The notes: a model not told the origin generated them from the letters alone. A DNA stretch of 64,000 bases from Candidatus Woesearchaeota archaeon (GCA_019323515.1 JAHWHG010000007.1:148603-212602); one strand, 5' to 3'; positions 22,656 through 37,980 are shown, counted from the stretch's first letter. Numbers and translations: made by a program.

Positions 22656-22670
22656 CATTAGATTGAAATA

Positions 22671-22775
22671 TTATTCTTTCTCCTTCTTCTCTTTCTCATC
22701 ACAAAAAAAACAATCTAACTTTTTACAGCCGCGCTGCGCATCATAACTTACCTTTTTTTCAACAACCCTTTCCAA
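22671..22775 (-). CDS. Putative 34-aa Cys-containing microprotein (not in ORF track)
   Basis: TTG start 4 nt after SD GAGGTGAT; MERVVEKKVSYDAQRGCKKLDCFFCDEKEKKEKE. Confidence 0.45.
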   Translation of the reverse strand: MERVVEKKVSYDAQRGCKKLDCFFCDEKEKKEKE

Positions 22776-22832
22776 AAAAATCACCTCTTTTTTTTTATTA
22801 TAAACACATCTTTTTCCCAGAGCAATAAAGCA

Positions 22833-23273: not shown

Positions 23274-23366
23274 TCTTTTTCAATCAACCAAAAGTACAAT
23301 AAATCTCAAAAAATTATAAAACTCAAATGATATTTAAATTATTCCAATCTAAAAAATATATGTTTA

Positions 23367-23867: not shown

Positions 23868-23953
23868 ATTAAAAATAAAAGAACCCTAGTTTATATAACT
23901 TTGTATTGAAGTAATCCAAAAATATTTTAAGTAGAGCCAAATCATATCAAATC

Positions 23954-24955
23954 ATGAAAAGATTACTTCAAGGAAACCAAGCAATCGTTGAAGCAGCAAT
24001 CAAGGTAGGCTGCAGTTTCTTTGCTGCATATCCTATCACTCCTGCATCAGAGATAATGCACTTTATGGCAAAAAAGGACATAGCCTTTATACATGCAGAA
24101 GATGAAATTGCATCAGTAAATATGGCAATCGGGGCTTCACTTGCAGGATCCAAATCAATGACTTCAACATCAGGACCTGGCTTCTCATTAAAACAAGAGG
24201 CAATCGGCTTTGCCCATATGACAAGAACCCCTCTTATTATAGTTGATGTCCAAAGAGTCGGCCCAAGTACTGGCATGCCCACCCTCCCAAATCAAGGAGA
24301 TATAATGCAATCAAGATATGGCAGTCATGGAGACTATATTCCAATTGTTTTCTATCCAAATTCAGTAGAAGAATGTTACAAGTACACAATAGAAGCATTC
24401 AATGCATCCGAAGAATCCTTAAGCCCAGTTATACTTTTAAGTGACGGCTTCCTAGGATTGATGTACGAAACTGTTGAACTTGACAAAATAAAGCATAATC
24501 TAAAGATAAGAAAGAAAGTAGCCTTAGGAAAAGGAGCAGGACATTTTGCAGGAATCCTTAATGAAAATGGAAATGCGAAAACAAAAGACTCAGCTTACTA
24601 CAAAAAATGGATGCAAGATTATAAAAAAGAGATTCTAGAAACAGCAAAAAGATACAATTTTTATGAGTATATTGAAAACAAAAAGTCAGACACACTTCTT
24701 ATCGCATATGGGATAACTTCAAGGGTAATCATGCCATTAAAAGAAGAATACTCAATATTCAGACCTATAAGGATTTGGCCTTTCTTAGAAGATGAACTTA
24801 TGATTATAGCAAGAAACTACAAGAAAATCATAGTCATAGAGATGAACGAAGGTCAGTATAAGAAAGAAGTTGAAAGGGTTCTTAAGAGAGATATTAAGTT
24901 CATAAACTGCAATGGAGGACAGCTCTCATTAGAAGAGATAAAATCAAGAATATGA
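23954..24955 (+). CDS. korA: 2-oxoacid:ferredoxin oxidoreductase alpha subunit (KorA-like)
   Basis: AYPITPASE, AEDEIAS, TSGPGFSL, VQRVGPSTGMPT, IEMNEGQ. Confidence 0.9.
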   Translation: MKRLLQGNQAIVEAAIKVGCSFFAAYPITPASEIMHFMAKKDIAFIHAEDEIASVNMAIGASLAGSKSMTSTSGPGFSLKQEAIGFAHMTRTPLIIVDVQRVGPSTGMPTLPNQGDIMQSRYGSHGDYIPIVFYPNSVEECYKYTIEAFNASEESLSPVILLSDGFLGLMYETVELDKIKHNLKIRKKVALGKGAGHFAGILNENGNAKTKDSAYYKKWMQDYKKEILETAKRYNFYEYIENKKSDTLLIAYGITSRVIMPLKEEYSIFRPIRIWPFLEDELMIIARNYKKIIVIEMNEGQYKKEVERVLKRDIKFINCNGGQLSLEEIKSRI

Positions 24956-25674
24956 GCATTGTAAAGACAGAGGAAGTGGTATGGTGTAAAGGCTGCGGCC
25001 TTAGCATTCTTCTCCACGCAGTAGGCCAAACATTAGAGAAGCTAAACATGAATAAACAGAACTCAACTGTTGTTTCAGGCATTGGATGCGCTGCACGTGG
25101 CTCAGGCTACTTCGACCTTGACGGAATAAACGGCCTTCATGGAAGAGCAATCCCACTAGCCGAAGGCATCAAACTTGCTAAACCAGAGATAAATACTTTT
25201 GTCTTTTCAGGAGACGGAGACCTCACCGGCATAGGAGGCAACCATTTAATTCACGCCTCAAGAAGAAACACAGACATAACAGTTATCTGCGCAAACAACG
25301 AAATCTACGGGATGACAGGTGGCCAGAAATCTCCTCTTACCCCTCTCGGAACAAAGACAATGACCTCACCTAAGGGGAATAGATGGGATCCTGTTAATAT
25401 CCAAGGGATAATAACCTCAAACAAAAAACATTTTTACGCAAGGACAACAGTCGCACATCTCCCACATCTTAAAAAATGCCTTGAAGAAGCTTTTAGGCAT
25501 AAGGGCTTTTCATTCGTAGAGGTAAAGATTAATTGCTTATCTAACTATGGCAGACGTATAGGGTTTAAGTCGTTCTTTGATATGCTAAAACACTACAAAG
25601 AAACATTCACAATAAATCAAAGTCCAACAACAGGACTAAAAGATAACGAATTAGGGATAATACAAAATGATTAA
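24952..25674 (+). CDS. korB: 2-oxoacid:ferredoxin oxidoreductase beta subunit (TPP-binding)
   Basis: WCKGCG, VSGIGC, LHGRA, GDGD..GIGGNH, NNEIYGMTGGQ.SP. Confidence 0.92.
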   Translation: MSIVKTEEVVWCKGCGLSILLHAVGQTLEKLNMNKQNSTVVSGIGCAARGSGYFDLDGINGLHGRAIPLAEGIKLAKPEINTFVFSGDGDLTGIGGNHLIHASRRNTDITVICANNEIYGMTGGQKSPLTPLGTKTMTSPKGNRWDPVNIQGIITSNKKHFYARTTVAHLPHLKKCLEEAFRHKGFSFVEVKINCLSNYGRRIGFKSFFDMLKHYKETFTINQSPTTGLKDNELGIIQND

Positions 25675-26167
25675 GATAATAATTATTGGAGAAGGGGGCC
25701 AAGGAGTTAAACTACTTGGAAATGTTATGGCAAACATTCTTGCATCTATAGGAAAACATGTAACTCTAACATACTCATACGACGCTGCTGTAAGAGGTGG
25801 AAACATAACTGCAAACCTAATCTACTCTGACGAAAAGATAGATAACCCAATAATAGACACTTCTGACATTCTGCTGATGCTTTCAGAGACAGAAGGAATC
25901 TCAACAAAAAAGATGATTATGGAAAAAACATTATTCAAAGAAGGTTACGAAAACATCCCTATAGGGGATATCACTAAGATTCCCTTAATCACCTTATCCT
26001 CTGAAAAATTCGGCAGCCCAATCTTCATCAACATGATTGCTCTCGGACAACTTCTCAAAAAGGTAGAGATTGACATCACCCAGATAAACTTAGAAAGATA
26101 CCTCCCTGAGAAGTTCCTCGAAAAGAACCTAGAAGCCATCAGATACGGTTACACCTGGCAGGAATGA
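25667..26167 (+). CDS. korC: 2-oxoacid:ferredoxin oxidoreductase gamma subunit
   Basis: GEGGQGV, YDAAVRGG, NMIALG. Confidence 0.88.
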   Translation: MIKIIIIGEGGQGVKLLGNVMANILASIGKHVTLTYSYDAAVRGGNITANLIYSDEKIDNPIIDTSDILLMLSETEGISTKKMIMEKTLFKEGYENIPIGDITKIPLITLSSEKFGSPIFINMIALGQLLKKVEIDITQINLERYLPEKFLEKNLEAIRYGYTWQE

Positions 26168-26174
26168 TAAAAGA

Positions 26175-27233
26175 ATGAGACTAAAAGAATACCAAGGAAA
26201 AGAACTTTTCAAGAAGTATGGGATTAAGGTTCCCTCAGGATATGTAATCTCAAGCATTAATCACGTAAAAGAGCAGCCAGGCATTGTTAAGGCACAGCTG
26301 CCTATAGGAAGCAGGGGCAAGTCAGGAGGTATAAAGACTGCTGACTCGGATAATATCAAAGAGATATGCTCCCAATTATTTAAGACAAAAATCAAAGGAT
26401 TAAAGGTAAAAGAACTTCTTATTGAAGAAAAGCTTGATATAGAAAAAGAACTTTATCTCTCAATCACAGTAAATCAGACAGATAAATGCCTTACACTAAT
26501 CTTTTCTGAACAAGGAGGAATTAATATTGAATCAGTTCCAGAAGATAACATAATTAAGATTAATTTCTTTAAATTTGATGAAATTATAGAAGAAATCAAA
26601 AGCACGATAAATGATAAAAAAATAATAGAAATCTCAAAAAACATCTACAACTTAATGAGAGACTTTGATGCTGAGCTAGTAGAAATCAACCCATTAGTTC
26701 TCTCAAAAGGTGAATACATTGCAGCCGACTCTAAAGTTATAATTGATGATAATGCACTTTATAGACATCCTGAATTCTCAAACGAAAAACAGCAGTCTGA
26801 TATTGAAAGGAAAGCTTCTGAATATGGACTTCAATATGTAGAGTTAGATGGAGATATCGCAATTATAGGTAATGGCGCAGGGCTAGTAATGGCAACACTT
26901 GACTCAATTAAACACTTTGGAGGTTCAGCTGCAAATTTTTTGGACCTTGGTGGAGGTGCTTCAGTAGAAAGGATGGAAAAAGCACTTGAAATTGCACTTA
27001 TGAAAAAAACAAAAGCAATTTTCATAAACGTATTCGGTGGTATAACTAGATGCGATGATATAGCACAAGGGCTTGTCAATTACATTAAAAAAAACAATAT
27101 CAATATTCCAATTGTTGTCAGGATAATAGGCACTAACCAAGAAAAAGCAGAACTTATCCTCAAAGAGAATAACATAGAATCATTCAACTCAATGGATGAA
27201 TGCAGCAAAAGAATAGTTAAGACTGCCAAGTAA
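26175..27233 (+). CDS. sucC: Succinyl-CoA synthetase beta subunit
   Basis: MRLKEYQGKELF, VKAQ..GSRGKSGG, VEINPL, GNGAGLVMATLD, ANFLDLGGGA, NVFGGITRCD. Confidence 0.9.
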   Translation: MRLKEYQGKELFKKYGIKVPSGYVISSINHVKEQPGIVKAQLPIGSRGKSGGIKTADSDNIKEICSQLFKTKIKGLKVKELLIEEKLDIEKELYLSITVNQTDKCLTLIFSEQGGINIESVPEDNIIKINFFKFDEIIEEIKSTINDKKIIEISKNIYNLMRDFDAELVEINPLVLSKGEYIAADSKVIIDDNALYRHPEFSNEKQQSDIERKASEYGLQYVELDGDIAIIGNGAGLVMATLDSIKHFGGSAANFLDLGGGASVERMEKALEIALMKKTKAIFINVFGGITRCDDIAQGLVNYIKKNNINIPIVVRIIGTNQEKAELILKENNIESFNSMDECSKRIVKTAK

Positions 27234-27240
27234 TATATTC

Positions 27241-27258
27241 TATTAAATATATTTAATA
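27241..27258. promoter_or_regulatory. 18-bp perfect palindrome upstream of the merR-like gene
   Basis: TATTAAATATATTTAATA; AT-only, so weak. Confidence 0.35.
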
Positions 27259-27299
27259 CACTATATTTTGCTTTAAATAAAGGCATATAAAAGGACCAT

Positions 27300-27860
27300 A
27301 TGCTCTATATACCAATGAAATCATTTTTTACACCTAAAGAAGTTAAAAGAATTGTTGGTATCAGCTATAGGCAGATGCAGTATTGGGATAATTCGAACTT
27401 TATCTCGCCTTCATATAGGAGAAGAAACAAGTATCGCTTATACACTTTTACAGATCTAACTAAATTAAAGTTTGCTAAGCAATTAAGGGAAAAAGGCTAT
27501 TCTATACAAAGATTAAGAAAAACTGTAAAGAGTCTAGAAGATTTGTTACCAAAAGTAAGCCATCCTTTAGTTGAATTAACATTCTTAATTGACGGAGACC
27601 GTATCCTGGTCTTCGATGGAGATGTCCTGATGAATGATACTAACAAAAGCTATTTGCGATTTAATGTCAAAAGCCTGAGAGAAAAGATAAATGAGATATG
27701 TAAAGATGAGTTTTCTCCAAAATCGAAAGAGAATAACAGAAGTGAAGCAGCAAGTAAATGGGAAAAGAAGAGCTCAGGTATTTATGAACTCTATTATTCA
27801 CATTGGTATCAGAAACTTCAAGAAGACAGTATTAAAGGAGATATTCATAAAGCTTATTAA
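27300..27860 (+). CDS. MerR-family HTH regulator
   Basis: FTPKEVKRIVGISYRQMQYWD...RLYTFTDL..L...L...GYSIQ. Confidence 0.85.
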   Translation: MLYIPMKSFFTPKEVKRIVGISYRQMQYWDNSNFISPSYRRRNKYRLYTFTDLTKLKFAKQLREKGYSIQRLRKTVKSLEDLLPKVSHPLVELTFLIDGDRILVFDGDVLMNDTNKSYLRFNVKSLREKINEICKDEFSPKSKENNRSEAASKWEKKSSGIYELYYSHWYQKLQEDSIKGDIHKAY

Positions 27861-27884
27861 ACAAGAACCTTTTTTCTAACAATT

Positions 27885-28754
27885 ATGTCAATCCTTATAG
27901 ACAAAAACACAAAAGTGATTGTTCAAGGAATCACAGGAAAACAAGGGAGTTTTCATACAAAACAGATGTTAAACTATGGAACTAAGATAGTTGCAGGAGT
28001 CACACCCGGCAAGCAAGGACAGACTATAGATGGGATTCCTGTGTACAATACAGTAAAGGAGGCATTAGTACAACACAACACTAATAACAAAAATCCAATA
28101 AAGTTCTCAATAATATTTGTTCCTGTAAGATTTGCGAAACAAGCAGCGATTGAAGCCCTAGAAAATAATCTTAACATTATCCTTATCACAGAAGGAATCC
28201 CAATTCATGATACTCTTGAAATAATTAAAGAAGCAAAACATAAAGACCTAATTGTAATAGGACCAAACTGCCCAGGCATAATCTCTCCTGAAGAATCAAA
28301 ACTTGGAATCATGCCAAATCAGATATTCAAAAAAGGAAAGATAGGAATAGTATCACGCTCAGGAACACTCACTTATGAGATTGTACATCTGCTCTCAAGC
28401 AATAACATTGGTCAATCCTCAGTGATAGGCATAGGAGGCGACTCTGTGATTGGCTTTGACTTTGTCGAAGCTTTGAAGAGGTTTGAACAAGATCAAGGAA
28501 CAGAAAAGATAATTCTAATTGGAGAGATTGGGGGAAACCTTGAGGAACAAGCAGCTAAGTTCATCAAGAACGATATAACCAAGCCAGTAATAGCATACAT
28601 TGCTGGAAAAACAGCACCTCTTGGAAAAAAAATGGGCCATGCAGGTGCAATTATCACAAGAGACGCAGGAACTGCTACCTCGAAAATCAAAGCGCTTCAA
28701 CAAGCAGGCGTAAAGATTGCAGAATTGCCCTCAAATATCCTAGATTTTCTTTGA
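27885..28754 (+). CDS. sucD: Succinyl-CoA synthetase alpha subunit
   Basis: VQGITGKQG, GVTPGK, GPNCPG, SRSGTLTYE, GEIGG, MGHAGA (phospho-His). Confidence 0.95.
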   Translation: MSILIDKNTKVIVQGITGKQGSFHTKQMLNYGTKIVAGVTPGKQGQTIDGIPVYNTVKEALVQHNTNNKNPIKFSIIFVPVRFAKQAAIEALENNLNIILITEGIPIHDTLEIIKEAKHKDLIVIGPNCPGIISPEESKLGIMPNQIFKKGKIGIVSRSGTLTYEIVHLLSSNNIGQSSVIGIGGDSVIGFDFVEALKRFEQDQGTEKIILIGEIGGNLEEQAAKFIKNDITKPVIAYIAGKTAPLGKKMGHAGAIITRDAGTATSKIKALQQAGVKIAELPSNILDFL

Positions 28755-28911
28755 AAACAATAACATCACAGATTTAAGCTAAAGAATCTTCTAGTTTTAT
28801 CACTTAACAAAAACATCAAAACGATTAATTTCATATTCAAAAAAGAACAAAACAAAAAGACTTATAGACTTTAGAATACAAAAATATTTAAATGTAAAAC
28901 CTGCAAAAAAT

Positions 28912-28958
28912 ACACAATATGTTGTGGTTTTGACAAAAAAACACACAACAGGTTGTTA
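28912..28958 (+). promoter_or_regulatory. Tandem NrdR boxes, 31 bp apart
   Basis: ACACAATATGTTGTGG (28912-28927) and ACACAACAGGTTGTTA (28943-28958) match the acaCwAtATaTwGtgt consensus; they lie directly upstream of nrdR-nrdD and just downstream of the TATA-like ATTTAAAT at 28886-28893. Confidence 0.85.
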
Positions 28959-28968
28959 TCACTGAAAA

Positions 28969-29454
28969 ATGAAATGTCCTTACTGCTTATCAAATGAAAC
29001 CAAGGTTGTAGACAAAAGACCTACAAGTGACTTTGAAGTCACAAGAAGAAGAAGGGAATGTCTAAAGTGCGAGCGCCGTTTTACTACGTATGAAAGGATT
29101 GAGATGGCTGACCTTGTTGTTGTCAAAAAAGACAGCAGAAGAGAGGCTTTTGATAGGGACAAACTAAAGCAAGGCCTGACAAAAGCACTGCAAAAAAGAC
29201 CAATAAGTGCTGAACAGGTAGATAAAATAATCAATGAAATTGAGATGAAACTCAAAGGCAAGGAAAATCTAGAGGTTGAAAGCAGATATATTGGGAAGCT
29301 TATCATGAACAGGCTCAAAAGGATAGACCCTGTAGCCTATATAAGATTTGCTTCAGTGTATAAATCATTTGATGACCTAGACGCATTTGCTGAAGAAATA
29401 AAAAAGATAAAACAAACGAAAAAAAGTGGTGATAATGATGGAGATTCTAGTTAA
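28969..29454 (+). CDS. nrdR: Transcriptional repressor NrdR
   Basis: MKCPYC...RRRRECLKCERRFTTYE, ATP cone VVKKDSRREAFDRDKL, VAYIRFASVY. Confidence 0.97.
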   Translation: MKCPYCLSNETKVVDKRPTSDFEVTRRRRECLKCERRFTTYERIEMADLVVVKKDSRREAFDRDKLKQGLTKALQKRPISAEQVDKIINEIEMKLKGKENLEVESRYIGKLIMNRLKRIDPVAYIRFASVYKSFDDLDAFAEEIKKIKQTKKSGDNDGDSS

Positions 29455-31741
29455 AAAAGCAGATGAAAGAACTGAATCATTCTCAAAACAAAAACTGAGT
29501 TACGCTTTAGAAAGAACAGGGATTCCAAACAAACATATCTCTGAAGTAGTTGACAAGATTGCTAAACAGGCGTATAACCTTATTCCAACCTCTGAGATTA
29601 GGAAATGGGTCATTGAAGAACTTGATAAGATTGATGAGCAATACAGCTATGGATTCAAATATAAAAGAAAAAACGTCTGGGTCGTTGGAGGAGAACCTCC
29701 ATTCAACCATGTGTTTCAACCATTTATCAAGCAAAGAATTGTTGAATCACTTATTAAAGAGACAAATATGGAGGAAAAACTAGCAAGAGAAATCTCAGAC
29801 GAAGTGGAACATCTACTTATTGAGAATAAAGTTGAGCATATAACAGGGCCACTCATAAGGGAACTTGTAAATTATATCCTTACAAAAAGAAAACTCTATG
29901 ACTATAAGAGAGATTATTCGAGACTCGGCATGCCTGTCTATGATATACATAGGACAATCAACCAAAACTTACATGAGAATGCAAATTTAGGGTATCATGC
30001 TGAAGCAATACATAAACTGATTGCTGACAATGTATCTAAGAAATACGCACTCACAAAAATACTTCCTCCTGAACTTGCTTACACACACCTCAAAGGAGAA
30101 TTATACATTCATGACCTAAGCTATTTCTCTACAAGACCATTTTGCTTTGCATCTGACCTTAGATTCTTCTTCAAAAACGGGCTTAAAGTAGATGGCTTTG
30201 GCAACCAAACCTCAACTGCAGGCCCAGCAAAACGTGCAGATGTTGCTTTAAACCATGCTGCGAAGATTGTCGGAGCTGGCCAAACTAACTGTGCAGGTGG
30301 TCAAGGCCTTGACTTCTTTAATATATGGATGTCACCTTTTTTAAAAGGAAAATCATACAATGAGATGTATCAACTAGCACAGCAATTCATTTATGAAATG
30401 AATATGATGCTTGTAAGCAGAGGCGGTCAAGCAGTCTTTTCTTCAATATCATTAGAATTCGACCCTCCCAAATGGATTTCCGAATTACCAGCAGTGCTTC
30501 CTGGAGGAAAGGTTAGTGAAAAAGAAACATATGCAGATTACACTGAGGAAGCCCTGACATTCACAGAAGCACTAACTGATGTATTCCTAGGAGGAGACTA
30601 CAATGGAAAGATGTTTTCATGGCCAAAACCTGAATTCAAGGTTAGGAAACCTTTGCTAAAGGGCAAGCATGAAGAACTCTTCATGAAGGTGCATCAACTA
30701 GCTTCAAAATTTGGCAGCCCTTATTTCCTTAACCTAAACGCACCATACATGCCGGACATATGCCAAAGTCAATGTTGTAGATTTTTTCTCACGCCAACTG
30801 CTGACGAATGGATAGACATTGAAAGAGGTTCTACAAGATCAAGCTGCATACAGTACGTTTCATTGAACCTTCCAAGAGTTGCTTACGAAGCAAAAGATGA
30901 GACTGCTGCATTGGAACTTATTCAAAAAAGGATGGAGCAATCAAAAGAAATATTCAAGATTAAAAATGATATAATAAGGCAAAGACTTGATCAAAAGATT
31001 CTTCCTTTCCTTGCGCAGGATTGCTACGGAGAATACCTTTATCCAATTAATCACTGCTTACACAATTTTGGTTTTGTAGGATTAAACGAAATGGTAAAAT
31101 CATTAACTGGAGAAGAACTTCATGAAAGCGAAAGTGCATGGAAGTTCGGATTAAAAGTAATCAAAAATATGTCTGATTATTCTAAACTCCTTAACGAAAA
31201 CCCTGATGAGGGATACGGATTACGATACGGAGTTGTACAAACACCTGGAGAAAGTGCACCCCATAGGCTCGCAAAGATTGATATGCGTGATTTCAAAGAC
31301 AAGGCAGTTGTACAGGGCAATGTCAAAGATGGTTCTGTTTATTACATGAACTCGTCACATCCAAACTACTCAGCTCCAATCAATCTTTTCAAGAGATTAC
31401 AGATTGATGCATCATTCCACCCTTTGCTCGATGGCGGCGCAATATCACATCTATGGTTAGGAGAATCTAACCCTGATCCAAGTGCACTTCTCAAGTTGAC
31501 AAAGAAGATATGTGAAAAAACACTCACTGCATATTATGCCTACACAAAGGACATAAGTTATTGCATTAAATGCCATAAGACTATGGGAGGCATACAAGAT
31601 ACATGCCCTAACTGCGGTTCTAACGAAGTGGAATGCTACAGTAGAGTGACTGGCTACTATCAAAGGGTATCAGGCTGGAACAAAGGAAAGAAACAAGAAT
31701 TCCTTGATAGATATAGATACGGAAATAACATGTTAAAATAA
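29435..31741 (+). CDS. nrdD: Class III anaerobic ribonucleoside-triphosphate reductase, copy 1 (two ATP cones)
   Basis: ENAN, IHD, RPFC, GGQG, SRGGQ, QSQCCRF, SLNLPR, TPGES, Zn ribbon CIKC..CPNC, glycyl-radical loop SRVTGYY; SD GGTGAT before ATG 29435/29438. Confidence 0.95.
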   Translation: MMEILVKKADERTESFSKQKLSYALERTGIPNKHISEVVDKIAKQAYNLIPTSEIRKWVIEELDKIDEQYSYGFKYKRKNVWVVGGEPPFNHVFQPFIKQRIVESLIKETNMEEKLAREISDEVEHLLIENKVEHITGPLIRELVNYILTKRKLYDYKRDYSRLGMPVYDIHRTINQNLHENANLGYHAEAIHKLIADNVSKKYALTKILPPELAYTHLKGELYIHDLSYFSTRPFCFASDLRFFFKNGLKVDGFGNQTSTAGPAKRADVALNHAAKIVGAGQTNCAGGQGLDFFNIWMSPFLKGKSYNEMYQLAQQFIYEMNMMLVSRGGQAVFSSISLEFDPPKWISELPAVLPGGKVSEKETYADYTEEALTFTEALTDVFLGGDYNGKMFSWPKPEFKVRKPLLKGKHEELFMKVHQLASKFGSPYFLNLNAPYMPDICQSQCCRFFLTPTADEWIDIERGSTRSSCIQYVSLNLPRVAYEAKDETAALELIQKRMEQSKEIFKIKNDIIRQRLDQKILPFLAQDCYGEYLYPINHCLHNFGFVGLNEMVKSLTGEELHESESAWKFGLKVIKNMSDYSKLLNENPDEGYGLRYGVVQTPGESAPHRLAKIDMRDFKDKAVVQGNVKDGSVYYMNSSHPNYSAPINLFKRLQIDASFHPLLDGGAISHLWLGESNPDPSALLKLTKKICEKTLTAYYAYTKDISYCIKCHKTMGGIQDTCPNCGSNEVECYSRVTGYYQRVSGWNKGKKQEFLDRYRYGNNMLK

Positions 31742-31779
31742 GACGTTAAACAAACAATAAAAAGATACAAGGATAAAAG

Positions 31780-33819
31780 ATGGAGAAGAAGATAATTACT
31801 TCAAATGGAGAGACAGGTTCTTTATCCAAGGAAAAAATAAAACAAGCTTTACTTAAAGAGACTTCAATAACAAAAGAAAATGCTGAACAGATTGCAGAAA
31901 AAAGTTTTAAGGAATTAGAGGGTATAAACGGAATCCTCAAGACAAGTTTGATTAGAGAAATAGTTTGTATGAAACTAAGAGAGCAAGGGCTTGAAAAAGA
32001 ACATTCAGAGTTTGTACGTCTTGGCCTGCCAGTGCACGAGGTTAAGAAAATAATGTTTGAATATGACAAGAACAATGCAAACACAACATATAACCCTCAA
32101 ACAATCCAATTTAATTTAGCACAGCCTATTGCAAGACAATATGCACTATTCCACTTACTTCCAAAAAAGATAGCAGATAGCCATATAAATGGCGAGATTT
32201 ACATCCATGACTTCGACTTCTTTGCAACAAGACCGTTCTGCTTTTCACATGATATAAGGTTCTTCCTAAAGAACGGACTTAAGACAGACGGTTCAGGGAA
32301 CCACACAGCATCTTCAGGACCTGCTAAAAGTCTCTCAGTAGCCCTTAGACACGCAGCAAGGACAATGATAATAGCCTCAAACTACTTTTCAGGAGGCCAA
32401 GGTTTTGATAGCCTTAACCTTTACTTAGCTCCCTACGCGCGTGGACTTAGCAACCATGCTATTGAACACGCAGTTCAAGGCTTTATCTTCCAGCTAGCAA
32501 CATTAAACGTTGTCAAAGGCGGCCAACTTCCCTTTACATCAGCATCACTCGAACTCAACATGCCAGGTTACCTCAAAGACGTCCCAGTAGTGCTTCCTGG
32601 AGGTAAAGTCAGTGAAAATGAGAACTACGAAAATTATTTAGATGAAGCAAGAAGAATTGCAGACGTGTTCACAAAACTTCTTATGCGTGGAGACCACTTT
32701 GGTAGACCATTCCACTTCCCTAAACCCGAATATAAGATAAGAAAGGATACTTTAAAGGATAAAGAAGTAGAGCCTCTACTCTTAGATATTCATAAACTTG
32801 TAGCTAAGTTCGGAAGTCCATACTTCCTAAACATGGCAGCTCCTTATATGCCAGATGCTCTCCAAAGCCAATGCTGCCGCTACTTCCTTGCACCTGACCA
32901 GGATTTCTGGGAAGAGATAAAGGAAGGTACTGTTAGGAGCGGCAGTATCCAGACTGTTACATTAAACCTTCCAAATATAGCCTATAACGTAAAAGATGAA
33001 TCCGAGATTTACCCACTAATCCAGGAAAGGATTAACCTCATGAGGGGCATATTTGATATCAAAAGAGAATGCATCAAAAAGGTAATGGACTCAGGAGCTG
33101 CACCTTTCCTTACAATGGATTGTAATGGAAAACCTTACTTCAAGATTAACGAATCAACAAACTCTGTCGGGTTTATAGGATTAAACGAGATGGTGAAGTC
33201 ATTAATTGGAGAAGAACTTCACGAAAGCGACAATGGATGGAAGTTAGGCTTAAAGATAATCAAGTACATGTCAGATTTAGTTATGGAAATGCAGGAAAAA
33301 ACCGGACAACGATGGGGTATGGTGCAAACACCAGCAGAATCCGTAAGCTGGAAGTTTGCTGAACTTGATTCAAAGAACTACAAAGATAAAGCGATTGTAC
33401 AAGGGAATAAAGAAACTGGCGATATTTTCTATACAAATAGTAGTCAGCCAAGGTACTCAGCTGACATAGACCTTTTCAAAAGACTCAAGATTGATAGTTC
33501 ATTCCATCCACTTGTAAAAGGTGGAGTGATATCACATGTATTCCTCGGAGAAAAGAACCCTGACCCAGAAGCCCTATTAAATTTGACAAAAAAGATTTGC
33601 TCTAAAACTCTAACAGCCTATTATGCTTATACAAAAGATATCACTTACTGTAACAGTTGTAGTAATACGTTTGGTGGCATACACCAAAAATGTCCTAGCT
33701 GTGGAGAAGAAGACAAGATTGAATGCTTTTCAAGAATAACTGGCTATTATACAAATGTAAAAAGCTGGAATAAAGGTAAGTTCAAGGAATTCCTAGAAAG
33801 AAAAAGGTATGGTCTATGA
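31780..33819 (+). CDS. nrdD: Class III ribonucleotide reductase, copy 2
   Basis: One ATP cone; IHD, RPFC, GGQG, QSQCCRY, TPAES, CNSC..CPSC, SRITGYY. Confidence 0.93.
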   Translation: MEKKIITSNGETGSLSKEKIKQALLKETSITKENAEQIAEKSFKELEGINGILKTSLIREIVCMKLREQGLEKEHSEFVRLGLPVHEVKKIMFEYDKNNANTTYNPQTIQFNLAQPIARQYALFHLLPKKIADSHINGEIYIHDFDFFATRPFCFSHDIRFFLKNGLKTDGSGNHTASSGPAKSLSVALRHAARTMIIASNYFSGGQGFDSLNLYLAPYARGLSNHAIEHAVQGFIFQLATLNVVKGGQLPFTSASLELNMPGYLKDVPVVLPGGKVSENENYENYLDEARRIADVFTKLLMRGDHFGRPFHFPKPEYKIRKDTLKDKEVEPLLLDIHKLVAKFGSPYFLNMAAPYMPDALQSQCCRYFLAPDQDFWEEIKEGTVRSGSIQTVTLNLPNIAYNVKDESEIYPLIQERINLMRGIFDIKRECIKKVMDSGAAPFLTMDCNGKPYFKINESTNSVGFIGLNEMVKSLIGEELHESDNGWKLGLKIIKYMSDLVMEMQEKTGQRWGMVQTPAESVSWKFAELDSKNYKDKAIVQGNKETGDIFYTNSSQPRYSADIDLFKRLKIDSSFHPLVKGGVISHVFLGEKNPDPEALLNLTKKICSKTLTAYYAYTKDITYCNSCSNTFGGIHQKCPSCGEEDKIECFSRITGYYTNVKSWNKGKFKEFLERKRYGL

Positions 33820-34952
33820 AGATTGATGTCCCTTTTAAAGACCTGGAAGAAAGTAGCCCTGATAAGATAGTAAAGTCTCTTCTAAAAGAGACATCTATAG
33901 AAGAAGACAAAGCAAAGATTATTGCAGAACAAGCATTCCAGGAGTTAAAGAAACTAGAGAGTATAACACCTAATTTAGTAAGAGAAATTGTATGTACTCA
34001 ACTCTTGAAATCCGGCCTAAGGAAATCACACAAAGAATATTCAAGGTTAGGTATGCCAGTATATGACATTAAAAATACTATCTTGCAGTATGATAAAGAA
34101 AATGCAAATGTAAACTATAATCCGCAATTTATGCACAAACAATTTGGAGATTCAATCTCTGAACAGTACACCTTACTATACCTTCTGCCTGCATCAGCAA
34201 GCAGGGCACACCTTAATGGAGAGATATACATACATGATAGGGCGTTCTTCCCAACAAGACCTTTCTGTTTTTCGCACGATATGAGATTCTTTCTTAAAAA
34301 CGGGGTAAAACCAGACGGGATAGGCATTTATGCAGGAGTTTCTGGACCTGCAAAAAGTCTACAAGTTGCAATGCAGCATGCTGCAAGAGTCTTACTTAAT
34401 GCTCAGACATACTTTTCAGGTGGCCAAGGCTTCGACAGTCTTAATCTTTACCTTGCACCTTATGCAAGGGGACTTAATTATTACCAAGTTAAACAGGCAG
34501 TTGAAGCATTTGTATACACTTTAGACCAGATATTTATACGCGATGGTGAGACAGCATTCACATCAGCATCACTCGAACTTAACTGCCCAAGATACTTAAA
34601 AGACGTGCCGGTTGTCCTTCCAGGTGGAAGAGTAACTGAAAATGAGAATTATGAGAACTACATTGAAGAAGCAAGAACAATCGCAAGAGCTTTTACAGAA
34701 GTAATGATGAATGGTGATCATAATGGCAAACCGTTTCATTTCCCTAAACCCGAGTATAAGATAAGAAAGGATACTTTAAAGGATAAAGAAGTAGAACCTC
34801 TACTCCTGGATGTACACAAACTTGTAGCTAAGTTCGGAAGTCCATACTTCCTAAACATGGCAGCTCCTTATATGCCAGACGCTCTCCAAAGTCAATGCTG
34901 TCGCTATTTCCTTGCACCTGACCAAGACTTCTGGGAAGACATCAAAGAAGGA
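32716..34952 (+). repeat. ~210-bp near-identical direct repeat shared by nrdD2 (about 32716-32928) and nrdD3 (about 34740-34952)
   Basis: Exact runs of 41 bp (32731-32771 = 34755-34795) and 62 bp (32794-32855 = 34818-34879), counted by eye. Confidence 0.85.
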
Positions 34953-35858
34953 ACCGTAAGAAGTGGAAGTATACAAGTTATAACAATTAACCTACCAAAC
35001 ATAGCATATAATGCAAAAGACGAAAGCCAAGTCTTTGACATTATTGACCAGCGCCTTGACACCGCTGAAAAGATATTCAATGTGAAAAGAGATGTAATAA
35101 AAAAAATATTAGATAACAATGCAGCACCTTTCCTAACAATGGAATGTAACAAGAAACCATATTTTAAGATTAAATCATCAACCAATTCTGTAGGATTTAT
35201 AGGGCTTAATGAGATGGTTAAATCACTGACAGGAGAAGAACTTCACGAAAGCGACAGCGCTTGGAAGCTCGGACTGAAGATTATAAAAGAGATGGCTGAC
35301 AAGGTCAAAGAAAAGCAAGAAAAAACAGAACAAAGATGGGGCATGGTACAGACACCTGCTGAAGGTTGTTCATATAAGCTGGCGGAGATTGACACTAAAA
35401 GGTATAAAGACAAGGCGATCGTACAAGGAGATACTAAATCCGGCACAATATATTATACGAATTCATGCCAAGTTAATTATTCCGCAAATTTACCATTATT
35501 TAATAGGATAAAGATTGACAGCTCATTCCACCCTCTTGTTAAGGGTGGTGTAATTAACCACATATTCCTTGGGGAAAAGAATCCAGACCCAGAAGCTCTT
35601 CTAAACCTAACAAACAAGATATGCAAAAACACTCTTACAGCATACTTTGCATACACCAAAGACATAACCTCTTGTAATAAATGCAAACAAACTTTTGGCA
35701 ACATACTTGAAAAATGTCCAAGTTGCGGTGCAGTGGGTGATGATTTACAATGGTACTCGAGGGTAACAGGCTATTATACGCCAGTAAAATCATGGAACAA
35801 GGGCAAAGCTACTGAATTTATTAACAGGAAAAGATATAGTGTAGGTGATAGACAATGA
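33816..35858 (+). CDS. nrdD: Class III ribonucleotide reductase, copy 3
   Basis: Degenerate ATP cone; ENAN, IHD, RPFC, GGQG, QSQCCRY, TPAEG, CNKC..CPSC, SRVTGYY; ATGA overlap with copy 2. Confidence 0.93.
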   Translation: MKIDVPFKDLEESSPDKIVKSLLKETSIEEDKAKIIAEQAFQELKKLESITPNLVREIVCTQLLKSGLRKSHKEYSRLGMPVYDIKNTILQYDKENANVNYNPQFMHKQFGDSISEQYTLLYLLPASASRAHLNGEIYIHDRAFFPTRPFCFSHDMRFFLKNGVKPDGIGIYAGVSGPAKSLQVAMQHAARVLLNAQTYFSGGQGFDSLNLYLAPYARGLNYYQVKQAVEAFVYTLDQIFIRDGETAFTSASLELNCPRYLKDVPVVLPGGRVTENENYENYIEEARTIARAFTEVMMNGDHNGKPFHFPKPEYKIRKDTLKDKEVEPLLLDVHKLVAKFGSPYFLNMAAPYMPDALQSQCCRYFLAPDQDFWEDIKEGTVRSGSIQVITINLPNIAYNAKDESQVFDIIDQRLDTAEKIFNVKRDVIKKILDNNAAPFLTMECNKKPYFKIKSSTNSVGFIGLNEMVKSLTGEELHESDSAWKLGLKIIKEMADKVKEKQEKTEQRWGMVQTPAEGCSYKLAEIDTKRYKDKAIVQGDTKSGTIYYTNSCQVNYSANLPLFNRIKIDSSFHPLVKGGVINHIFLGEKNPDPEALLNLTNKICKNTLTAYFAYTKDITSCNKCKQTFGNILEKCPSCGAVGDDLQWYSRVTGYYTPVKSWNKGKATEFINRKRYSVGDRQ

Positions 35859-36118
35859 AAGAGATAAAAATTGATATATTTGTTAAAAAAAATGAAGAAA
35901 AAAGTAAAAATGCAAAAATGATTGTTGAGAAAGTAACCGCTGAAATGGAAAACATTAGAATTAATGTCTTGGACATTGAAGAGGAAGAGATTACTGCATT
36001 AACATACCATATTATTAAAAGCCCAAGCATCTGTATCAATGGTTTGACAAGGTTTCATGGCAACATTCCTAATGAAGAAGCATTAAGGTCTGAAATCCTT
36101 AAAGCTCAGTTGATGTAA
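35855..36118 (+). CDS. Thioredoxin-fold protein lacking CxxC
   Basis: IFVKKNEEKSKNAK aligns with VFTGKNCPKCPAAK of the next gene; cis-Pro segment KSPSICING; ATGA overlap with nrdD3. Confidence 0.75.
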   Translation: MKEIKIDIFVKKNEEKSKNAKMIVEKVTAEMENIRINVLDIEEEEITALTYHIIKSPSICINGLTRFHGNIPNEEALRSEILKAQLM

Positions 36119-36162
36119 TAATATAGATTAACATAAAAATAACATAACGGAGGTAAATAAAA

Positions 36163-36414
36163 ATGAAACTAACTGTATTTACTGGAAAAAACTGCCCAAA
36201 ATGTCCTGCAGCAAAAGAACTTTGCGAGGAGATTGCAAAAGAAAAAGGTATGGAATATGAGGTTAAAGATATTGAAGAAAACATGTTTGAAGCACTTCAG
36301 CTACAGATTGCATCTACACCTACGATTCTGCTAAATGATAATATCTTATTCAGGTCTGACCCACCAACAAAAGAAGAACTTATCCAAGCTATTGAAGAAA
36401 ACAGAGAGGGATGA
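36163..36414 (+). CDS. NrdH/glutaredoxin-like redoxin (CPKC)
   Basis: CPKC, IASTPTI; SD GGAGGT. Confidence 0.9.
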   Translation: MKLTVFTGKNCPKCPAAKELCEEIAKEKGMEYEVKDIEENMFEALQLQIASTPTILLNDNILFRSDPPTKEELIQAIEENREG

Positions 36415-36468
36415 AAACTCTCTGGACCCAGTTTTCTCAGAATATAGATATCTCTCTGGGATATTAAG

Positions 36469-37224
36469 ATGGAAGCATATATAGCAGGCACTGTCCCAAT
36501 GTCAACAGTTGACTGGCCTGGCAATATATCGCTAGTTATATTTTTTGCAGGCTGCGACTTCAAGTGCAGTTATTGCTATAACTCCAAGTTAGTTGAGTTT
36601 AAGCAAGAGTTCAAAAAGCCTATTAAAGAACTTAAAGAAGAGATTAAAAAAAGTTTGGGATTTATAGATGCAGTATTATTCTCAGGAGGAGAATGCTGCC
36701 TCCAACTTCAAGCATTGAAAGAATTGGCAAAATTCACAAAAAGTATGGAACTAAAAGTAGGAATAGAAACTAACGGAACAAGACCAGGAGTTGTAAGGCA
36801 CCTAATTAATGAAAGACTTATTGACTTTATTGGCCTTGACCTCAAGGCACCATTTGAACCAATCCTATTTGAAAATGTCACAAAATCAAAAACATTCTTC
36901 AAGACAACCGAAGAAGTTATAGACAACATAAAAGAGACTGTAGAGATTCTAAAGAAGAATACAAATAAGCTAGAGATTGAGATAAGGACAACTGTAGTAC
37001 CTACATTAGTACATACAAAAGAACATCTTGAATTAATAGGTAAAGAGATTCAAGGCTTAATCTGCACATGGTCACTGCAACAGTTCAGACCTGAAGAAGG
37101 AAAGATGATTGATAAATCTCTTGAAAAAGTTAAACCTCCAAAGCGAAGCGAACTAGAGTATTACAAAGAGCATCTTGAAAGAAAATTCCCATATCTTTCA
37201 ATCAAGGTAAAAGCAATTGATTAA
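36469..37224 (+). CDS. nrdG: Class III RNR activating radical SAM enzyme
   Basis: STVDWPG, FAGCDFKCSYCYN, FSGGE, ETNG, DLKAP, EIRTTVVP. Confidence 0.92.
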   Translation: MEAYIAGTVPMSTVDWPGNISLVIFFAGCDFKCSYCYNSKLVEFKQEFKKPIKELKEEIKKSLGFIDAVLFSGGECCLQLQALKELAKFTKSMELKVGIETNGTRPGVVRHLINERLIDFIGLDLKAPFEPILFENVTKSKTFFKTTEEVIDNIKETVEILKKNTNKLEIEIRTTVVPTLVHTKEHLELIGKEIQGLICTWSLQQFRPEEGKMIDKSLEKVKPPKRSELEYYKEHLERKFPYLSIKVKAID

Positions 37225-37251
37225 TGAAAATTGATTGATGATTATGTAAAA

Positions 37252-37980
37252 TCAATCTGCTGATTTGAGATTCTTTAGTTTACCAAAAAAATACACCTTA
37301 TCAGAAACAATATAAACCTCGAAGTTACTAAGTTTTTGCTTTAGAAAGGGACTTAGTATCTCTTCCTTAAGAATATCAGTACCTTCAGTTACAAGATTAA
37401 AAGATGGCATTACTATCAGCTTTTTTCTTTTCCAATTACCAATCAAAAAACATTTATAAGTCTCAAACCTTCCTGACTCTGACAGTGTTACAGCTGGATG
37501 CTCATGCCCAATTATAATATACTTTGCTTTCTTAAACACTTTATCATTACTCTCATCAGGCAAAACATGACCATGGCAGATATAATAATCATCTACAACA
37601 TAATAATCCCTTACCTCAAGATTCCTTTTTGCAGCAATGGGCTTAAGTATTGTATCATGATTACCTTTAAGCAGTACAATCTTCTTCGCATACTTAAACA
37701 TCAAGTCTAAAATCCTTAGAGTATGCCTCCATTCTGTCTCAGATATTGTACCAAACTCATGCTTTAGATCTCCATTTATAACAATAGTGTCTATCTTAAC
37801 AGCCTTAAGCACATTCTCAAGACGCTTAACAGTCTCAACAAACTGAAACCTAGGAACAAGAACACCTTGCTTATTCAAAGCTTCTTCATATCCCATATGG
37901 ATATCAGATACAACCAAAATCCTTTGCTTTCTAAAGTAAAGACACAAGTCAATAATTTCAAGCTCACTATTCAATCCCAT
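37252..37980 (-). CDS. Lhr-associated metallophosphoesterase (SbcD-related, archaeal type)
   Basis: VSDIHMGYE, NGDLKHEF, KGNHD, CHGH, GHEHP, MPSFN. Confidence 0.9.
   Translation of the reverse strand: MGLNSELEIIDLCLYFRKQRILVVSDIHMGYEEALNKQGVLVPRFQFVETVKRLENVLKAVKIDTIVINGDLKHEFGTISETEWRHTLRILDLMFKYAKKIVLLKGNHDTILKPIAAKRNLEVRDYYVVDDYYICHGHVLPDESNDKVFKKAKYIIIGHEHPAVTLSESGRFETYKCFLIGNWKRKKLIVMPSFNLVTEGTDILKEEILSPFLKQKLSNFEVYIVSDKVYFFGKLKNLKSAD

What the first reader, a model, noticed from the sequence alone, without database searches (positions are those of the whole stretch)
28969..37224. Three tandem class III ribonucleotide reductases in one operon with one activase and two thioredoxin-fold proteins
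Seen: nrdR-nrdD1-nrdD2-nrdD3-trx(no CxxC)-trx(CPKC)-nrdG, tightly packed with ATGA overlaps. All three NrdDs keep the glycyl-radical loop (R[VI]TGYY), Zn ribbon, first Cys (RPFC), finger-loop Cys pair (QSQCCR) and TPxE, so none looks like a pseudogene. Established: a single NrdD homodimer normally reduces all four NTPs through allosteric switching, and adjacent CC plus a linked redoxin typify redoxin-dependent class III enzymes. I know of no described triple-paralog operon. Inference: a multi-subunit or division-of-labour RNR (heterodimers or base-specialised isozymes), striking in an apparently streamlined genome. Best candidate for an undescribed system here.
Basis: partly seen in the sequence, partly recalled or inferred. 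Interest (0 to 1): 0.92.

Follow-up and report, generated by a model that had tools for sequence, protein, structure and literature searches.

The report
Triple anaerobic ribonucleotide reductase operon
A tiny-genome Woesearchaeal archaeon keeps three intact, diverged copies of the oxygen-sensitive enzyme that makes DNA building blocks in one operon with a single activator. This elaborates a two-copy operon that recurs in related archaea and that I could not find described, and it suggests divided labour in an enzyme normally seen as one self-sufficient homodimer.

Summary
Window 28969-37224 encodes nrdR, three full-length NrdD paralogs (48-68% identical), a CxxC-less thioredoxin-fold protein, a CPKC thioredoxin and an NrdG2-type activase.

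It is not a mis-assembly. A different MAG (G002) has the same operon with 1:1 orthologs, and an independent assembly is 100% identical up to a 201-nt D2/D3 gene-conversion tract.

All three copies keep every catalytic motif. All are under strong purifying selection (pN 0.09-0.13, synonymous sites saturated).

The triplet is rare: 2 of 401 genomes of the order, 0 of 80 metagenome loci. It derives from a recurrent DPANN operon of a long ATP-cone NrdD, a short cone-less NrdD, Trx and NrdG, seen in at least 12 loci with congruent long and short trees. D2 and D3 are an old duplication of the short partner.

Divergence concentrates in the specificity-site helices and loop 2. D2/D3 identity there is 33% against 68% elsewhere (p=2.5e-6), while orthologs are 89-93% identical in the same columns.

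Best reading: three active, co-expressed isozymes with partitioned allosteric control. A heteromeric enzyme is not excluded. I rate it a new variant of a known kind, interest about 0.6.

The parts
28912..28958 (+). Two NrdR-box-like palindromes (ACACAATATGTTGTGG at 28912-27; ACACAACAGGTTGTTA at 28943-58). Their starts are 31 bp apart, downstream of an A/T-rich TATA-like element at about 28880-28894.
   Evidence: Read directly from the sequence. The match to the bacterial NrdR-box consensus is from my own knowledge of that consensus. Binding was not tested.
28969..29454 (+). nrdR: Zn-ribbon plus ATP-cone transcriptional repressor. It is the first gene of the operon and overlaps the nrdD1 start.
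   Evidence: TIGR00244 195 bits (cut-off 124.65); PF22811 and PF03477. 82% identical ortholog in G002 and 71% in G001 at the same site.
29435..31741 (+). nrdD1: long class III RNR (767 aa from ATG 29435; the ORF opens at GTG 29426). It has a true N-terminal ATP-cone, a second degenerate cone-like module and the catalytic core. Loop 2 is canonical (VSRGGQAVF).
   Evidence: PF13597 495.7 bits and PF03477 50.7 bits. AF2 pLDDT 88.6 with two hairpin-plus-4-helix modules at residues 5-79 and 82-161. Foldseek top hits are NrdD structures. 86% ortholog in G002; pN 0.093, pS 0.91.
31780..33819 (+). nrdD2: short class III RNR (679 aa). It lacks the first ATP-cone and has only a sub-threshold cone-like N-terminus. 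Loop 2 is VVKGGQLPF, matching the consensus of the short clade.
   Evidence: PF13597 503 bits; ATP-cone 23.2 bits, below the 25.8 cut-off. 85% ortholog in G002; pN 0.112, pS 0.88. 25 copy-specific changes at positions conserved in the short clade, clustered in the flap and in aB/loop 2.
33816..35858 (+). nrdD3: short class III RNR (680 aa) with no detectable ATP-cone. Loop 2 is shortened by one residue (FIRDG[E/Q]TAF) and helix aA differs (NAQTYF). Its start overlaps the nrdD2 stop (ATGA).
   Evidence: PF13597 518 bits. AF2 pLDDT 85.0. 80% ortholog in G002; pN 0.133, pS 0.86. A third D3 ortholog fragment (77-80% identical) is followed by a TrxX-like gene, Trx and NrdG on metagenome contig L123.
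32713..32913 (+). Gene-conversion tract, nrdD2 copy. It covers the region encoding PFHFPKPEYK...QSQCCRYFLAPDQDFWE.
   Evidence: 201 nt, 93% identical to 34737-34937. pS is 0.23-0.30 here against about 0.85 elsewhere. An independent assembly's contig ends inside it, at 32760.
34737..34937 (+). Gene-conversion tract, nrdD3 copy.
35855..36118 (+). trxX: thioredoxin-fold protein without the CxxC motif (EEKS in place of CPKC). The cis-Pro (SPS) is kept. Its start overlaps the nrdD3 stop (ATGA).
   Evidence: PF13192 27.7 bits (cut-off 24.8). CxxC is also absent in G002 (DKKS), and only the second Cys is present in L123 (DAQC). It evolves fast (49% identity, pN 0.30) but is intact in all three lineages. 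It is always found directly after a D3-type nrdD.
36163..36414 (+). trx: 83-aa CPKC thioredoxin/glutaredoxin-like redoxin (MJ0307-like). It is the presumed electron donor to the NrdD cysteine pair.
   Evidence: PF13192 51.8 bits. TIGR00411 gives 60.7 bits, below the 92.75-bit cut-off. A homologous redoxin follows the short NrdD in the related dual-NrdD loci listed and mapped by tblastn. A TrxR-like gene lies at G000:C6:72106-72990.
36469..37224 (+). nrdG: radical-SAM activase, the only one in the operon.
   Evidence: TIGR02495 (NrdG2) 169 bits (cut-off 131); PF04055 and PF13353. 52-56% identical to the NrdG of other dual-NrdD operons.

Best explanation
The operon encodes three catalytically competent class III ribonucleotide reductase isozymes of the type that carries an extra finger-loop cysteine and uses a redoxin.

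How it is likely wired:
- The genes are packed for co-transcription behind NrdR boxes.
- The single NrdG installs the glycyl radical on all three.
- All three are re-reduced through the one CPKC thioredoxin, itself probably reduced by the genome's TrxR-like enzyme.

The copies have partitioned allosteric control.
- D1 keeps a true ATP-cone, and so the dATP off-switch, and keeps the ancestral-looking specificity loop.
- D2 and D3 descend from an old cone-less short paralog that accompanies an ATP-cone NrdD in many DPANN archaea. They carry different specificity-site helices (aA, aB), loop 2 and flap regions.
- Each enzyme therefore probably responds to a different subset of effector/substrate pairs. 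Together they supply balanced dNTPs.

The CxxC-less TrxX travels with D3. It is probably a non-redox partner of D3.

Shown here: gene content, intact motifs, conservation, evolutionary history and the site-specific divergence.
Inferred: co-transcription, sharing of NrdG and Trx, escape from dATP inhibition, and different specificities.
For: 1. All catalytic and cofactor motifs are intact in the three copies and in their G002 orthologs.
2. Purifying selection on each copy: pN 0.093, 0.112 and 0.133 with pS 0.86-0.91. This is lower pN than the flanking sucC and sucD (0.16, 0.24).
3. The same nine-gene synteny occurs in another genus-level MAG. An independent assembly is 100% identical.
4. Long+short NrdD-Trx-NrdG operons occur in at least 12 further loci, including a different order. 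Long and short topologies are congruent within the S30/L26 pairs.
5. In aA+aB+loop 2, D2/D3 identity is 15/46 (33%) against 435/636 (68%) elsewhere, Fisher p=2.5e-6. Orthologs are 89-93% identical in the same columns. Positions come from the AF2 models. Published NrdD structures show these elements form the dimer interface, bind the effector and read the substrate base (PMC4493059).
6. Only D1 has a Pfam-significant ATP-cone. Cone domains mediate dATP inhibition via the active-site flap (PMC12662201; PMC11226230).
7. In all 10 genomes with a short-type NrdD where I listed NrdD matches, another non-short NrdD is present. At most 18% of NrdD-bearing genomes of the order have two or more matches.
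8. Short-type NrdDs coexist with partners only about 28% identical (G053, G143, G401). That favours stand-alone function of the short enzyme.
9. D3-TrxX-Trx-NrdG recurs in three lineages.
Against: - There is no biochemical or expression evidence.
- The elements that diverged also form the dimer interface. The same signal fits evolution of specific heteromers, or of mutual exclusion, rather than new specificities.
- Key loop-2 residues (R/K-x-x-Q) are largely retained. The Q-to-E change in D3 is not shared by its G002 ortholog, so a changed substrate range is not obvious from sequence.
- Ongoing D2/D3 gene conversion shows the two are not fully independent.
- The long partner has been exchanged during evolution. 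D1 groups with the partners of a different short subclade. The functional relationship may therefore be loose.
Confidence: 0.5

Rival explanations
1. Heteromeric class III RNR. The paralogs assemble into mixed dimers (D1 with a short subunit, and/or D2 with D3). This would fix genetically the active/inactive monomer asymmetry seen in NrdD dimers, with one chain supplying the ATP-cone. TrxX would be a structural adaptor.
For: - Stop/start overlaps between long and short genes in L028, L029, L031 and L036, and between D2/D3 and D3/trxX here.
- One activase and one redoxin serve all copies.
- Divergence is concentrated in the aA/aB helices that form the dimer interface.
- The short clade replaces small interface residues (AAQTNC) with bulky ones (LSSTYF).
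- The P. copri NrdD dimer is functionally asymmetric (PMC11226230).
- Long and short trees are congruent within one clade of pairs.
Against: - All copies keep every catalytic residue under strong constraint. None looks like a dedicated regulatory subunit.
- Short-type NrdDs occur without an adjacent long partner (L037, L038, L042, L045, L047, L053, G053). They also occur in genomes whose only other NrdD is about 28% identical, where heterodimerisation is unlikely.
- The long partner was swapped between clades.
- Compact overlapping genes are the norm in these genomes, so the overlaps are weak evidence.
Confidence: 0.22
2. Functionally redundant copies kept for dosage, or a slow transitional state after duplication or transfer. 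There would be no real specialisation.
For: The RNR literature notes that more than one gene set per class is common and may reflect the lag between acquisition and loss (PMC3019208). Gene conversion between D2 and D3 homogenises part of the genes.
Against: - The copies are retained across genera with saturated synonymous divergence and low pN.
- The long/short pair is conserved across orders.
- The genomes are only about 1.1 Mb.
- Divergence is non-random and focused on regulatory elements that are themselves conserved between orthologs.
Confidence: 0.12
3. One or two copies are no longer reductases. They would act as nucleotide-sensing regulators or pseudo-enzymes, like the wHTH-ATP-cone-dead-NrdD proteins found next to nrdD in other archaeal contigs.
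For: Dead NrdD paralogs do exist beside active nrdD genes. An earlier scan note describes a similar case in Bacilli.
Against: D1, D2 and D3 keep the Gly-radical loop, both catalytic Cys positions, the extra Cys, the YIHD triphosphate motif, the NxN flap and the Zn ribbon. The dead paralogs have lost all of these except the Zn ribbon.
Confidence: 0.04
4. Assembly artefact: strain variants of one nrdD stitched in tandem.
For: The source is a MAG. A 201-nt near-identical tract exists between D2 and D3.
Against: - Paralogs are only 48-68% identical.
- The D2/D3 and D3/trxX junctions are unique ATGA overlaps, not repeats.
- G002, a different MAG with 80-86% identical orthologs, has the same order.
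- A Logan assembly reproduces nrdR-D1-D2 at 100% identity.
- L123 reproduces D3-trxX-trx-nrdG.
Confidence: 0.01

Closest known systems
Thioredoxin-dependent class III RNR (NrdD2 of Wei et al. 2014: Neisseria bacilliformis and Thermotoga maritima NrdD)
   Same: - Glycyl-radical NrdD with an extra Cys next to the finger-loop Cys (tmNrdD SCCR, here SQCCR).
- Bottom-face Cys (tm C125, here RPFC).
- Triphosphate motif (tm HYHD, here YIHD).
- Zn ribbon.
- A linked thioredoxin-fold redoxin and an NrdG activase.
(PMC4493059.)
   Different: - Those are single-copy enzymes acting as homodimers. Here three paralogs share one activase and one redoxin.
- Sequence identity to solved NrdDs is only about 16-21% in the Foldseek alignments.
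- I could not map the subtype-defining active-site Glu, so NrdD2 versus NrdD3 is open.
Methanosarcina barkeri NrdD3 with an NrdH-like redoxin
   Same: A class III RNR from an anaerobic archaeon with a third Cys and a small glutaredoxin/thioredoxin-like partner (subtype summary in PMC9176816, and PMC4493059).
   Different: That system has a single NrdD. Its reductant chain uses a ferredoxin:disulfide reductase according to the title of the primary paper, which is not held here. This genome has a TrxR-like gene instead.
ATP-cone-regulated NrdD (Prevotella copri, Streptococcus thermophilus)
   Same: D1 has an N-terminal ATP-cone, a connector and the NxN (ENAN) flap. In those enzymes these transmit ATP/dATP status to the active site (PMC11226230; PMC12662201). 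They are the best structural matches.
   Different: - Those are formate-type (MGCR) single enzymes.
- D1 carries a second, degenerate cone module.
- D1 is accompanied by two cone-less paralogs that should escape this control.
Organisms with several RNR gene sets (for example Pseudomonas aeruginosa classes Ia+II+III; redundancy noted in RNRdb surveys)
   Same: More than one RNR per genome is common and sometimes reflects specialisation (PMC3019208).
   Different: In known cases the sets belong to different classes or lie at separate, differently regulated loci, each with its own accessory genes. Here three same-class paralogs sit in one tightly packed operon with shared accessories.
Tandem long+short NrdD pairs in Patescibacteria
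   Same: An ATP-cone NrdD next to a cone-less NrdD with a redoxin and NrdG, in small-genome organisms.
   Different: That host lineage is bacterial. No Patescibacterial names appeared among the top 120 hits of either of my homolog searches, so the pairs may be independent inventions. Those are pairs, not triplets. I did not test this.

Membership tests
Class III RNR catalytic subunit (NrdD) | Match to the curated family models above cut-off | tested here: met
   TIGR02487 at 490, 493 and 514 bits (cut-off 326); PF13597 at 496, 503 and 518 bits.
Class III RNR catalytic subunit (NrdD) | C-terminal glycyl-radical loop (RxTGY) preceded by a four-Cys Zn ribbon | tested here: met
   SR[VI]TGYY and CxxC...CxxC are invariant in D1-D3 and in their orthologs.
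Class III RNR catalytic subunit (NrdD) | Bottom-face Cys, finger-loop Cys, NTP-binding motif and NxN flap | tested here: met
   RPFC aligns to tmNrdD C125. SQCCR corresponds to tm SCCR. YIHD corresponds to tm HYHD. ENAN aligns to the P. copri flap. All are invariant.
Class III RNR catalytic subunit (NrdD) | Ten-stranded alpha/beta barrel fold of NrdD | tested here: met
   AF2 models have pLDDT 88.6 (D1) and 85.0 (D3). The D1 model hits NrdD chains from S. thermophilus, P. copri, T. maritima and T4 at E 1e-29 to 1e-19, with target-normalised TM (TMt) 0.59-0.79.
Class III RNR catalytic subunit (NrdD) | Glycyl radical formation and NTP reduction | not testable with these tools
   Needs anaerobic biochemistry.
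Redoxin-dependent NrdD subtypes (NrdD2/NrdD3 of Wei et al.) | Third Cys adjacent to the finger-loop Cys, in place of the Met-Gly-Cys of formate enzymes | tested here: met
   QSQCCR in all three. The Methanobrevibacter relatives in the same tree have MGCR. The definition is taken from PMC4493059.
Redoxin-dependent NrdD subtypes (NrdD2/NrdD3 of Wei et al.) | Active-site Glu (N. bacilliformis E438), present in NrdD2 and absent in NrdD3 | tested here: inconclusive
   The primary paper is not held. The TPxE Glu is also present in the formate-type P. copri enzyme, so it is not diagnostic. The equivalent of E438 could not be mapped.
Redoxin-dependent NrdD subtypes (NrdD2/NrdD3 of Wei et al.) | Dedicated CxxC redoxin and a reductase for it | tested here: met
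   A CPKC Trx_3 protein is in the operon. A TrxR-like gene scores 302 bits, just under the 343-bit equivalog cut-off. Electron transfer was not tested.
ATP-cone activity regulation | Pfam ATP-cone above the gathering threshold at the N-terminus | tested here: met
   Met for D1 only, at 50.7 bits (cut-off 25.8), with V-K-K...E-F...K-L hairpin residues. D2 scores 23.2 bits (below cut-off) and D3 has no hit. Their N-terminal module keeps the fold but not the basic hairpin residues.
NrdR regulon | NrdR protein plus tandem NrdR boxes upstream of nrd genes | tested here: met
   TIGR00244 at 195 bits. Two 16-nt palindromic boxes lie 31 bp apart at 28912-28958. The consensus is from memory and binding was not tested.
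Heteromeric (alpha/alpha') RNR, hypothetical | Physical association of different NrdD paralogs | not testable with these tools
   Only single-chain prediction was available. The indirect evidence is mixed.

The most novel reading that the evidence does not exclude
Class III RNR in these archaea is a hetero-oligomeric machine. The ATP-cone subunit D1 and the cone-less subunits D2 and D3 would form defined mixed dimers, each with two non-equivalent specificity sites. This would hard-wire the half-of-sites asymmetry of NrdD. The redox-dead TrxX would be a dedicated structural partner of D3. It would be the first heteromeric glycyl-radical ribonucleotide reductase.
Probability: 0.15. Interest if true: 0.9.

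Novelty: new variant of a known kind. Interest (0 to 1): 0.6.

Why it matters
Class III RNR is treated as a single homodimer that makes all four dNTPs by allosteric switching. Here, and in a wider set of DPANN archaea, organisms with very small genomes pay to keep two or three active copies in one operon with shared activase and reductant. The copies differ exactly where effectors are bound and substrates are read.

If the copies divide the four substrates or the ATP/dATP control between them, or form mixed dimers, that is a new solution to dNTP balancing. It would also be a natural experiment on how RNR specificity is encoded.

The system is directly testable: three proteins, one activase and one redoxin. 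It also flags a conserved redox-dead thioredoxin-fold partner.

Tried and rejected
- Mis-assembly is rejected, based on G002 synteny, a 100% identical independent assembly and L123.
- Recent duplication is rejected. D2/D3 sisterhood has 96% support on the full alignment. Support falls to 0 once conversion tracts are removed, and D3 drifts toward P0023 in the N-terminal half. The split is therefore old and blurred by gene conversion.
- P0023 as a third triplet is rejected. Its contig has no adjacent second NrdD.
- The related-loci scan of genome contigs gave only 6 loci and little information.
- The metagenome census first seemed to show 37 tandem pairs. 36 of them are a different system with a catalytically dead upstream paralog, so I did not count them.
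- The 102-aa ORF in L028 is not a TrxX homolog.
- The word-index search for TrxX found only itself. The exhaustive search found one relative.
- NrdD2 versus NrdD3 assignment failed because the primary papers are not held.
- Heterodimer modelling was not possible, because only single chains encoded exactly by the window can be folded.

Full report
**1. Observation**

The ORF map shows seven tightly packed + strand genes.
- nrdR 28969-29454
- nrdD1 29426-31741 (probable start ATG 29435)
- nrdD2 31780-33819
- nrdD3 33816-35858
- a Trx-fold gene 35855-36118
- a second Trx-fold gene 36163-36414
- nrdG 36469-37224

The D2/D3 and D3/trxX junctions are ATGA overlaps. D1 and D2 are 38 nt apart.

Family models confirm every assignment above curated cut-offs: NrdR TIGR00244 at 195 bits, the three NrdDs on TIGR02487 at 490-514 bits, and NrdG on TIGR02495 at 169 bits.

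The three NrdDs are 48%, 50% and 67.5% identical in pairs. They share as invariant columns the YIHD triphosphate motif, RPFC, QSQCCR, QTPxE, the ENAN flap, the four-Cys Zn ribbon and SR[VI]TGYY. The first Trx-fold protein has EEKS where the second has CPKC.

The window lies in a 1.12-Mb, 76%-complete genome that has exactly these three NrdD genes. The genome also has a class II-type RNR next to a corrinoid adenosyltransferase and a TrxR-like gene. Hit names place it in Woesearchaeota/Nanoarchaeota, i.e. DPANN.

**2. The arrangement is real**

G002 is a different MAG of the same family ('Candidatus Woesearchaeota archaeon FT1_799'). It has sucC-merR-sucD-nrdR-D1-D2-D3-trxX-trx-nrdG with 1:1 orthologs at 86%, 85% and 80% identity, far above the paralog identities.

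A Logan assembly of run SRR11241199 is 100% identical to window 19438-32760. It ends at 32760. That point lies inside a 201-nt tract where D2 (32713-32913) and D3 (34737-34937) are 93% identical. This is what a repeat-induced contig break looks like.

A 1.3-kb JGI contig (L123) carries the 3' end of a D3 ortholog, which is 77-80% identical to D3 and 65-69% to D2. It is followed by a TrxX-like gene, a CPKC Trx and the start of nrdG.

**3. Selection**

Nei-Gojobori counts between G000 and G002:

| Gene | pN | pS |
|---|---|---|
| D1 | 0.093 | 0.91 |
| D2 | 0.112 | 0.88 |
| D3 | 0.133 | 0.86 |
| NrdR | 0.11 | 0.73 |
| Trx | 0.14 | 0.82 |
| SucC | 0.16 | 0.78 |
| SucD | 0.24 | 0.83 |
| TrxX | 0.30 | 0.71 |

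Synonymous sites are saturated for the three NrdDs. All three reductases are therefore among the most constrained genes of the neighbourhood.

Sliding windows show gene conversion between D2 and D3. In G000, codons about 312-378 have pS 0.23-0.30. In G002, other segments are affected.

**4. Evolutionary origin**

Homolog searches and trees show two old clades.
- A 'long' type of about 770 aa with a Pfam ATP-cone.
- A 'short' type of about 680 aa without one.

D1 with P0050-52 forms a clade that is sister to the whole short clade (SH-aLRT 95). D2 and D3 lie inside one short subclade, which I call S30.

The N-terminal alignment shows that the short type lacks the first cone and begins with the long type's second, degenerate cone module. 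The AF2 models agree: D1 has two hairpin-plus-four-helix modules and D3 has one.

Long and short genes share an operon with Trx and NrdG in many contigs. Sometimes dCTP deaminase, dCMP deaminase or ThyA is inserted.
- L028, L029, L030, L031
- L033-L036; two of these are G080 and G075
- L052
- G573, from another order of the class

Within the S30 pairs the long-partner and short-partner topologies are congruent, which indicates long co-inheritance.

D1, however, groups with the long partners of the other short subclade. The window's Trx and NrdG resemble those of S30-type operons (52-66%) more than those of D1-like operons (40-45%). The long partner was therefore exchanged at least once.

G001, of the same family, has at the identical syntenic site nrdR plus a single NrdD only about 28% identical, a different NrdG and no Trx. 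Whole cassettes are thus replaced in situ.

**5. Age and rarity of the third copy**

D2+D3 are sisters on the full alignment (96). Support falls to 0 when the conversion tracts are removed, and in the N-terminal half D3 is unresolved near P0023. Nine identical shared derived residues scattered along the proteins still point to common ancestry. I read this as an old duplication near the base of S30, blurred by conversion.

Tandem triplets were found only in G000 and G002 among 401 genomes of the order. None was found among 80 metagenome loci. L123 shows the D3-TrxX module in a third lineage.

**6. Where the copies differ**

I took aA, aB and loop 2 from the AF2 model of D3 (residues 182-199, 222-237 and 238-248).
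- In these 46 columns D2 and D3 are 33% identical, against 68% elsewhere (Fisher p=2.5e-6).
- In the same columns the ortholog pairs are 91% (D1), 93% (D2) and 89% (D3) identical.

Loop 2 by copy:
- D1: VSRGGQAVF, like the long-type consensus and like P. copri
- D2: VVKGGQLPF, the S30 consensus
- D3: FIRDG[E/Q]TAF, with a one-residue deletion

Copy-specific changes at positions at least 90% conserved in S30 number 25 for D2 (flap region, aB/loop 2) and 20 for D3 (before and in aA).

In tmNrdD and T4 NrdD these helices form the dimer interface and the effector site, and loop 2 reads the substrate base (PMC4493059). In S. thermophilus and P. copri NrdD the cone controls the flap.

**7. Interpretation**

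The data show three active-looking, long-retained, co-located reductases that have diverged in their regulatory apparatus.

I favour separate isozymes with partitioned allosteric control (confidence 0.5). My reasons are as follows.
- All copies keep full catalytic equipment.
- Short-type NrdDs also occur without an adjacent long gene.
- Short-type NrdDs occur in genomes whose only other NrdD is very distant (G053, G143, G401).
- In all 10 genomes where I listed NrdD matches, a short type is accompanied by a non-short NrdD. That fits an accessory, specialised role.

A heteromeric enzyme (0.22) fits the interface-focused divergence and the coupling, but the partner swapping and the distant partners weaken it.

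Redundancy (0.12), pseudo-enzyme regulators (0.04) and artefact (0.01) are poorly supported.

**8. Comparison with known systems**

These are class III RNRs of the extra-Cys, redoxin-linked kind. NrdD2 versus NrdD3 is unresolved because the defining Glu could not be mapped.

The literature states that several RNR gene sets per genome are common (PMC3019208). My searches found no description of co-operonic NrdD paralogs in archaea.

Earlier unchecked notes of this scan report analogous long+short pairs in Patescibacteria. I did not test whether they are related.

**9. Limits**

The genomes are incomplete MAGs. Censuses were samples, and only two candidates per genome were scored.

Noticed in passing
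L069:5436-7736 (dead paralog), 7884-10034 (active NrdD), 10031-10303 (Trx); L061:5279-7585 and 7854-10028; about 34 further metagenome loci (L058-L121): Many archaeal sediment contigs have, directly upstream of an intact cone-less nrdD, a roughly 766-aa protein made of a winged HTH (HTH_20/DUF7347), an ATP-cone and an NrdD-like body. The body has lost RPFC, the CC pair, the Gly-radical loop, YIHD and the NxN flap, but keeps the Zn ribbon. It reads like an archaeal analogue of NrdR built from a pseudo-enzyme.
   Followed up: partly
G402(=G080):C12:92954-93070 and 93250-93348; G403(=G075):C63:9717-9878 and 10057-10155; G053:C157:21686-21910; G054:C22:4830-4955: Small stand-alone ORFs (40-105 aa), sometimes in tandem, match only the C-terminal glycyl-radical segment of NrdD. 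They may be GrcA/YfiD-like 'spare part' radical domains for RNR. None was seen in this genome.
   Followed up: no
G001:C17, G007:C1, G010:C40, G012:C45, G018:C1, G025:C147, G035:C23: The commonest Woesearchaeal NrdD type matches Pfam NRDD only to about position 525-532. The last roughly 35 model positions match separately, 18-180 nt downstream. This could be an insertion or a split glycyl-radical C-terminus.
   Followed up: no
L020 (G001:C17) compared with window 26175-37980: At the same sucCD-nrdR...metallophosphoesterase site, a same-family genome has one distant NrdD (about 28% identical) with a different NrdG and no redoxin. The whole RNR cassette has been replaced in situ while nrdR stayed (71% identical).
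   Followed up: partly
G000:C19:26260-27786 (L040:2260-3786, minus strand): The genome also has a 508-aa class II-type RNR (Ribonuc_red_lgN plus barrel) next to an ATP:corrinoid adenosyltransferase. That makes four RNR catalytic genes in a genome of about 1.1 Mb.
   Followed up: partly
window 20233-23273: ThyX (Thy1), thymidylate kinase and a dCTP deaminase/dUTPase-like gene lie 6-9 kb upstream of the nrd operon. The Pfam calls come from the identical contig L122. This is a loose deoxynucleotide-metabolism neighbourhood.
   Followed up: no
P0121, P0132, P0151-P0165; G126, G342, G214, G348, G091: Many long-type NrdDs of related archaea carry inteins (PF14528/PF14890, 1140-1260 aa). Several Woesearchaeal NrdD frames contain in-frame stops (G058, G362, G218, G377).
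   Followed up: no
window 27300-27860: A MerR-like gene sits between sucC and sucD. It is conserved at that position in G001, G002 and L122. This is an unusual interruption of the succinyl-CoA synthetase pair.
   Followed up: no
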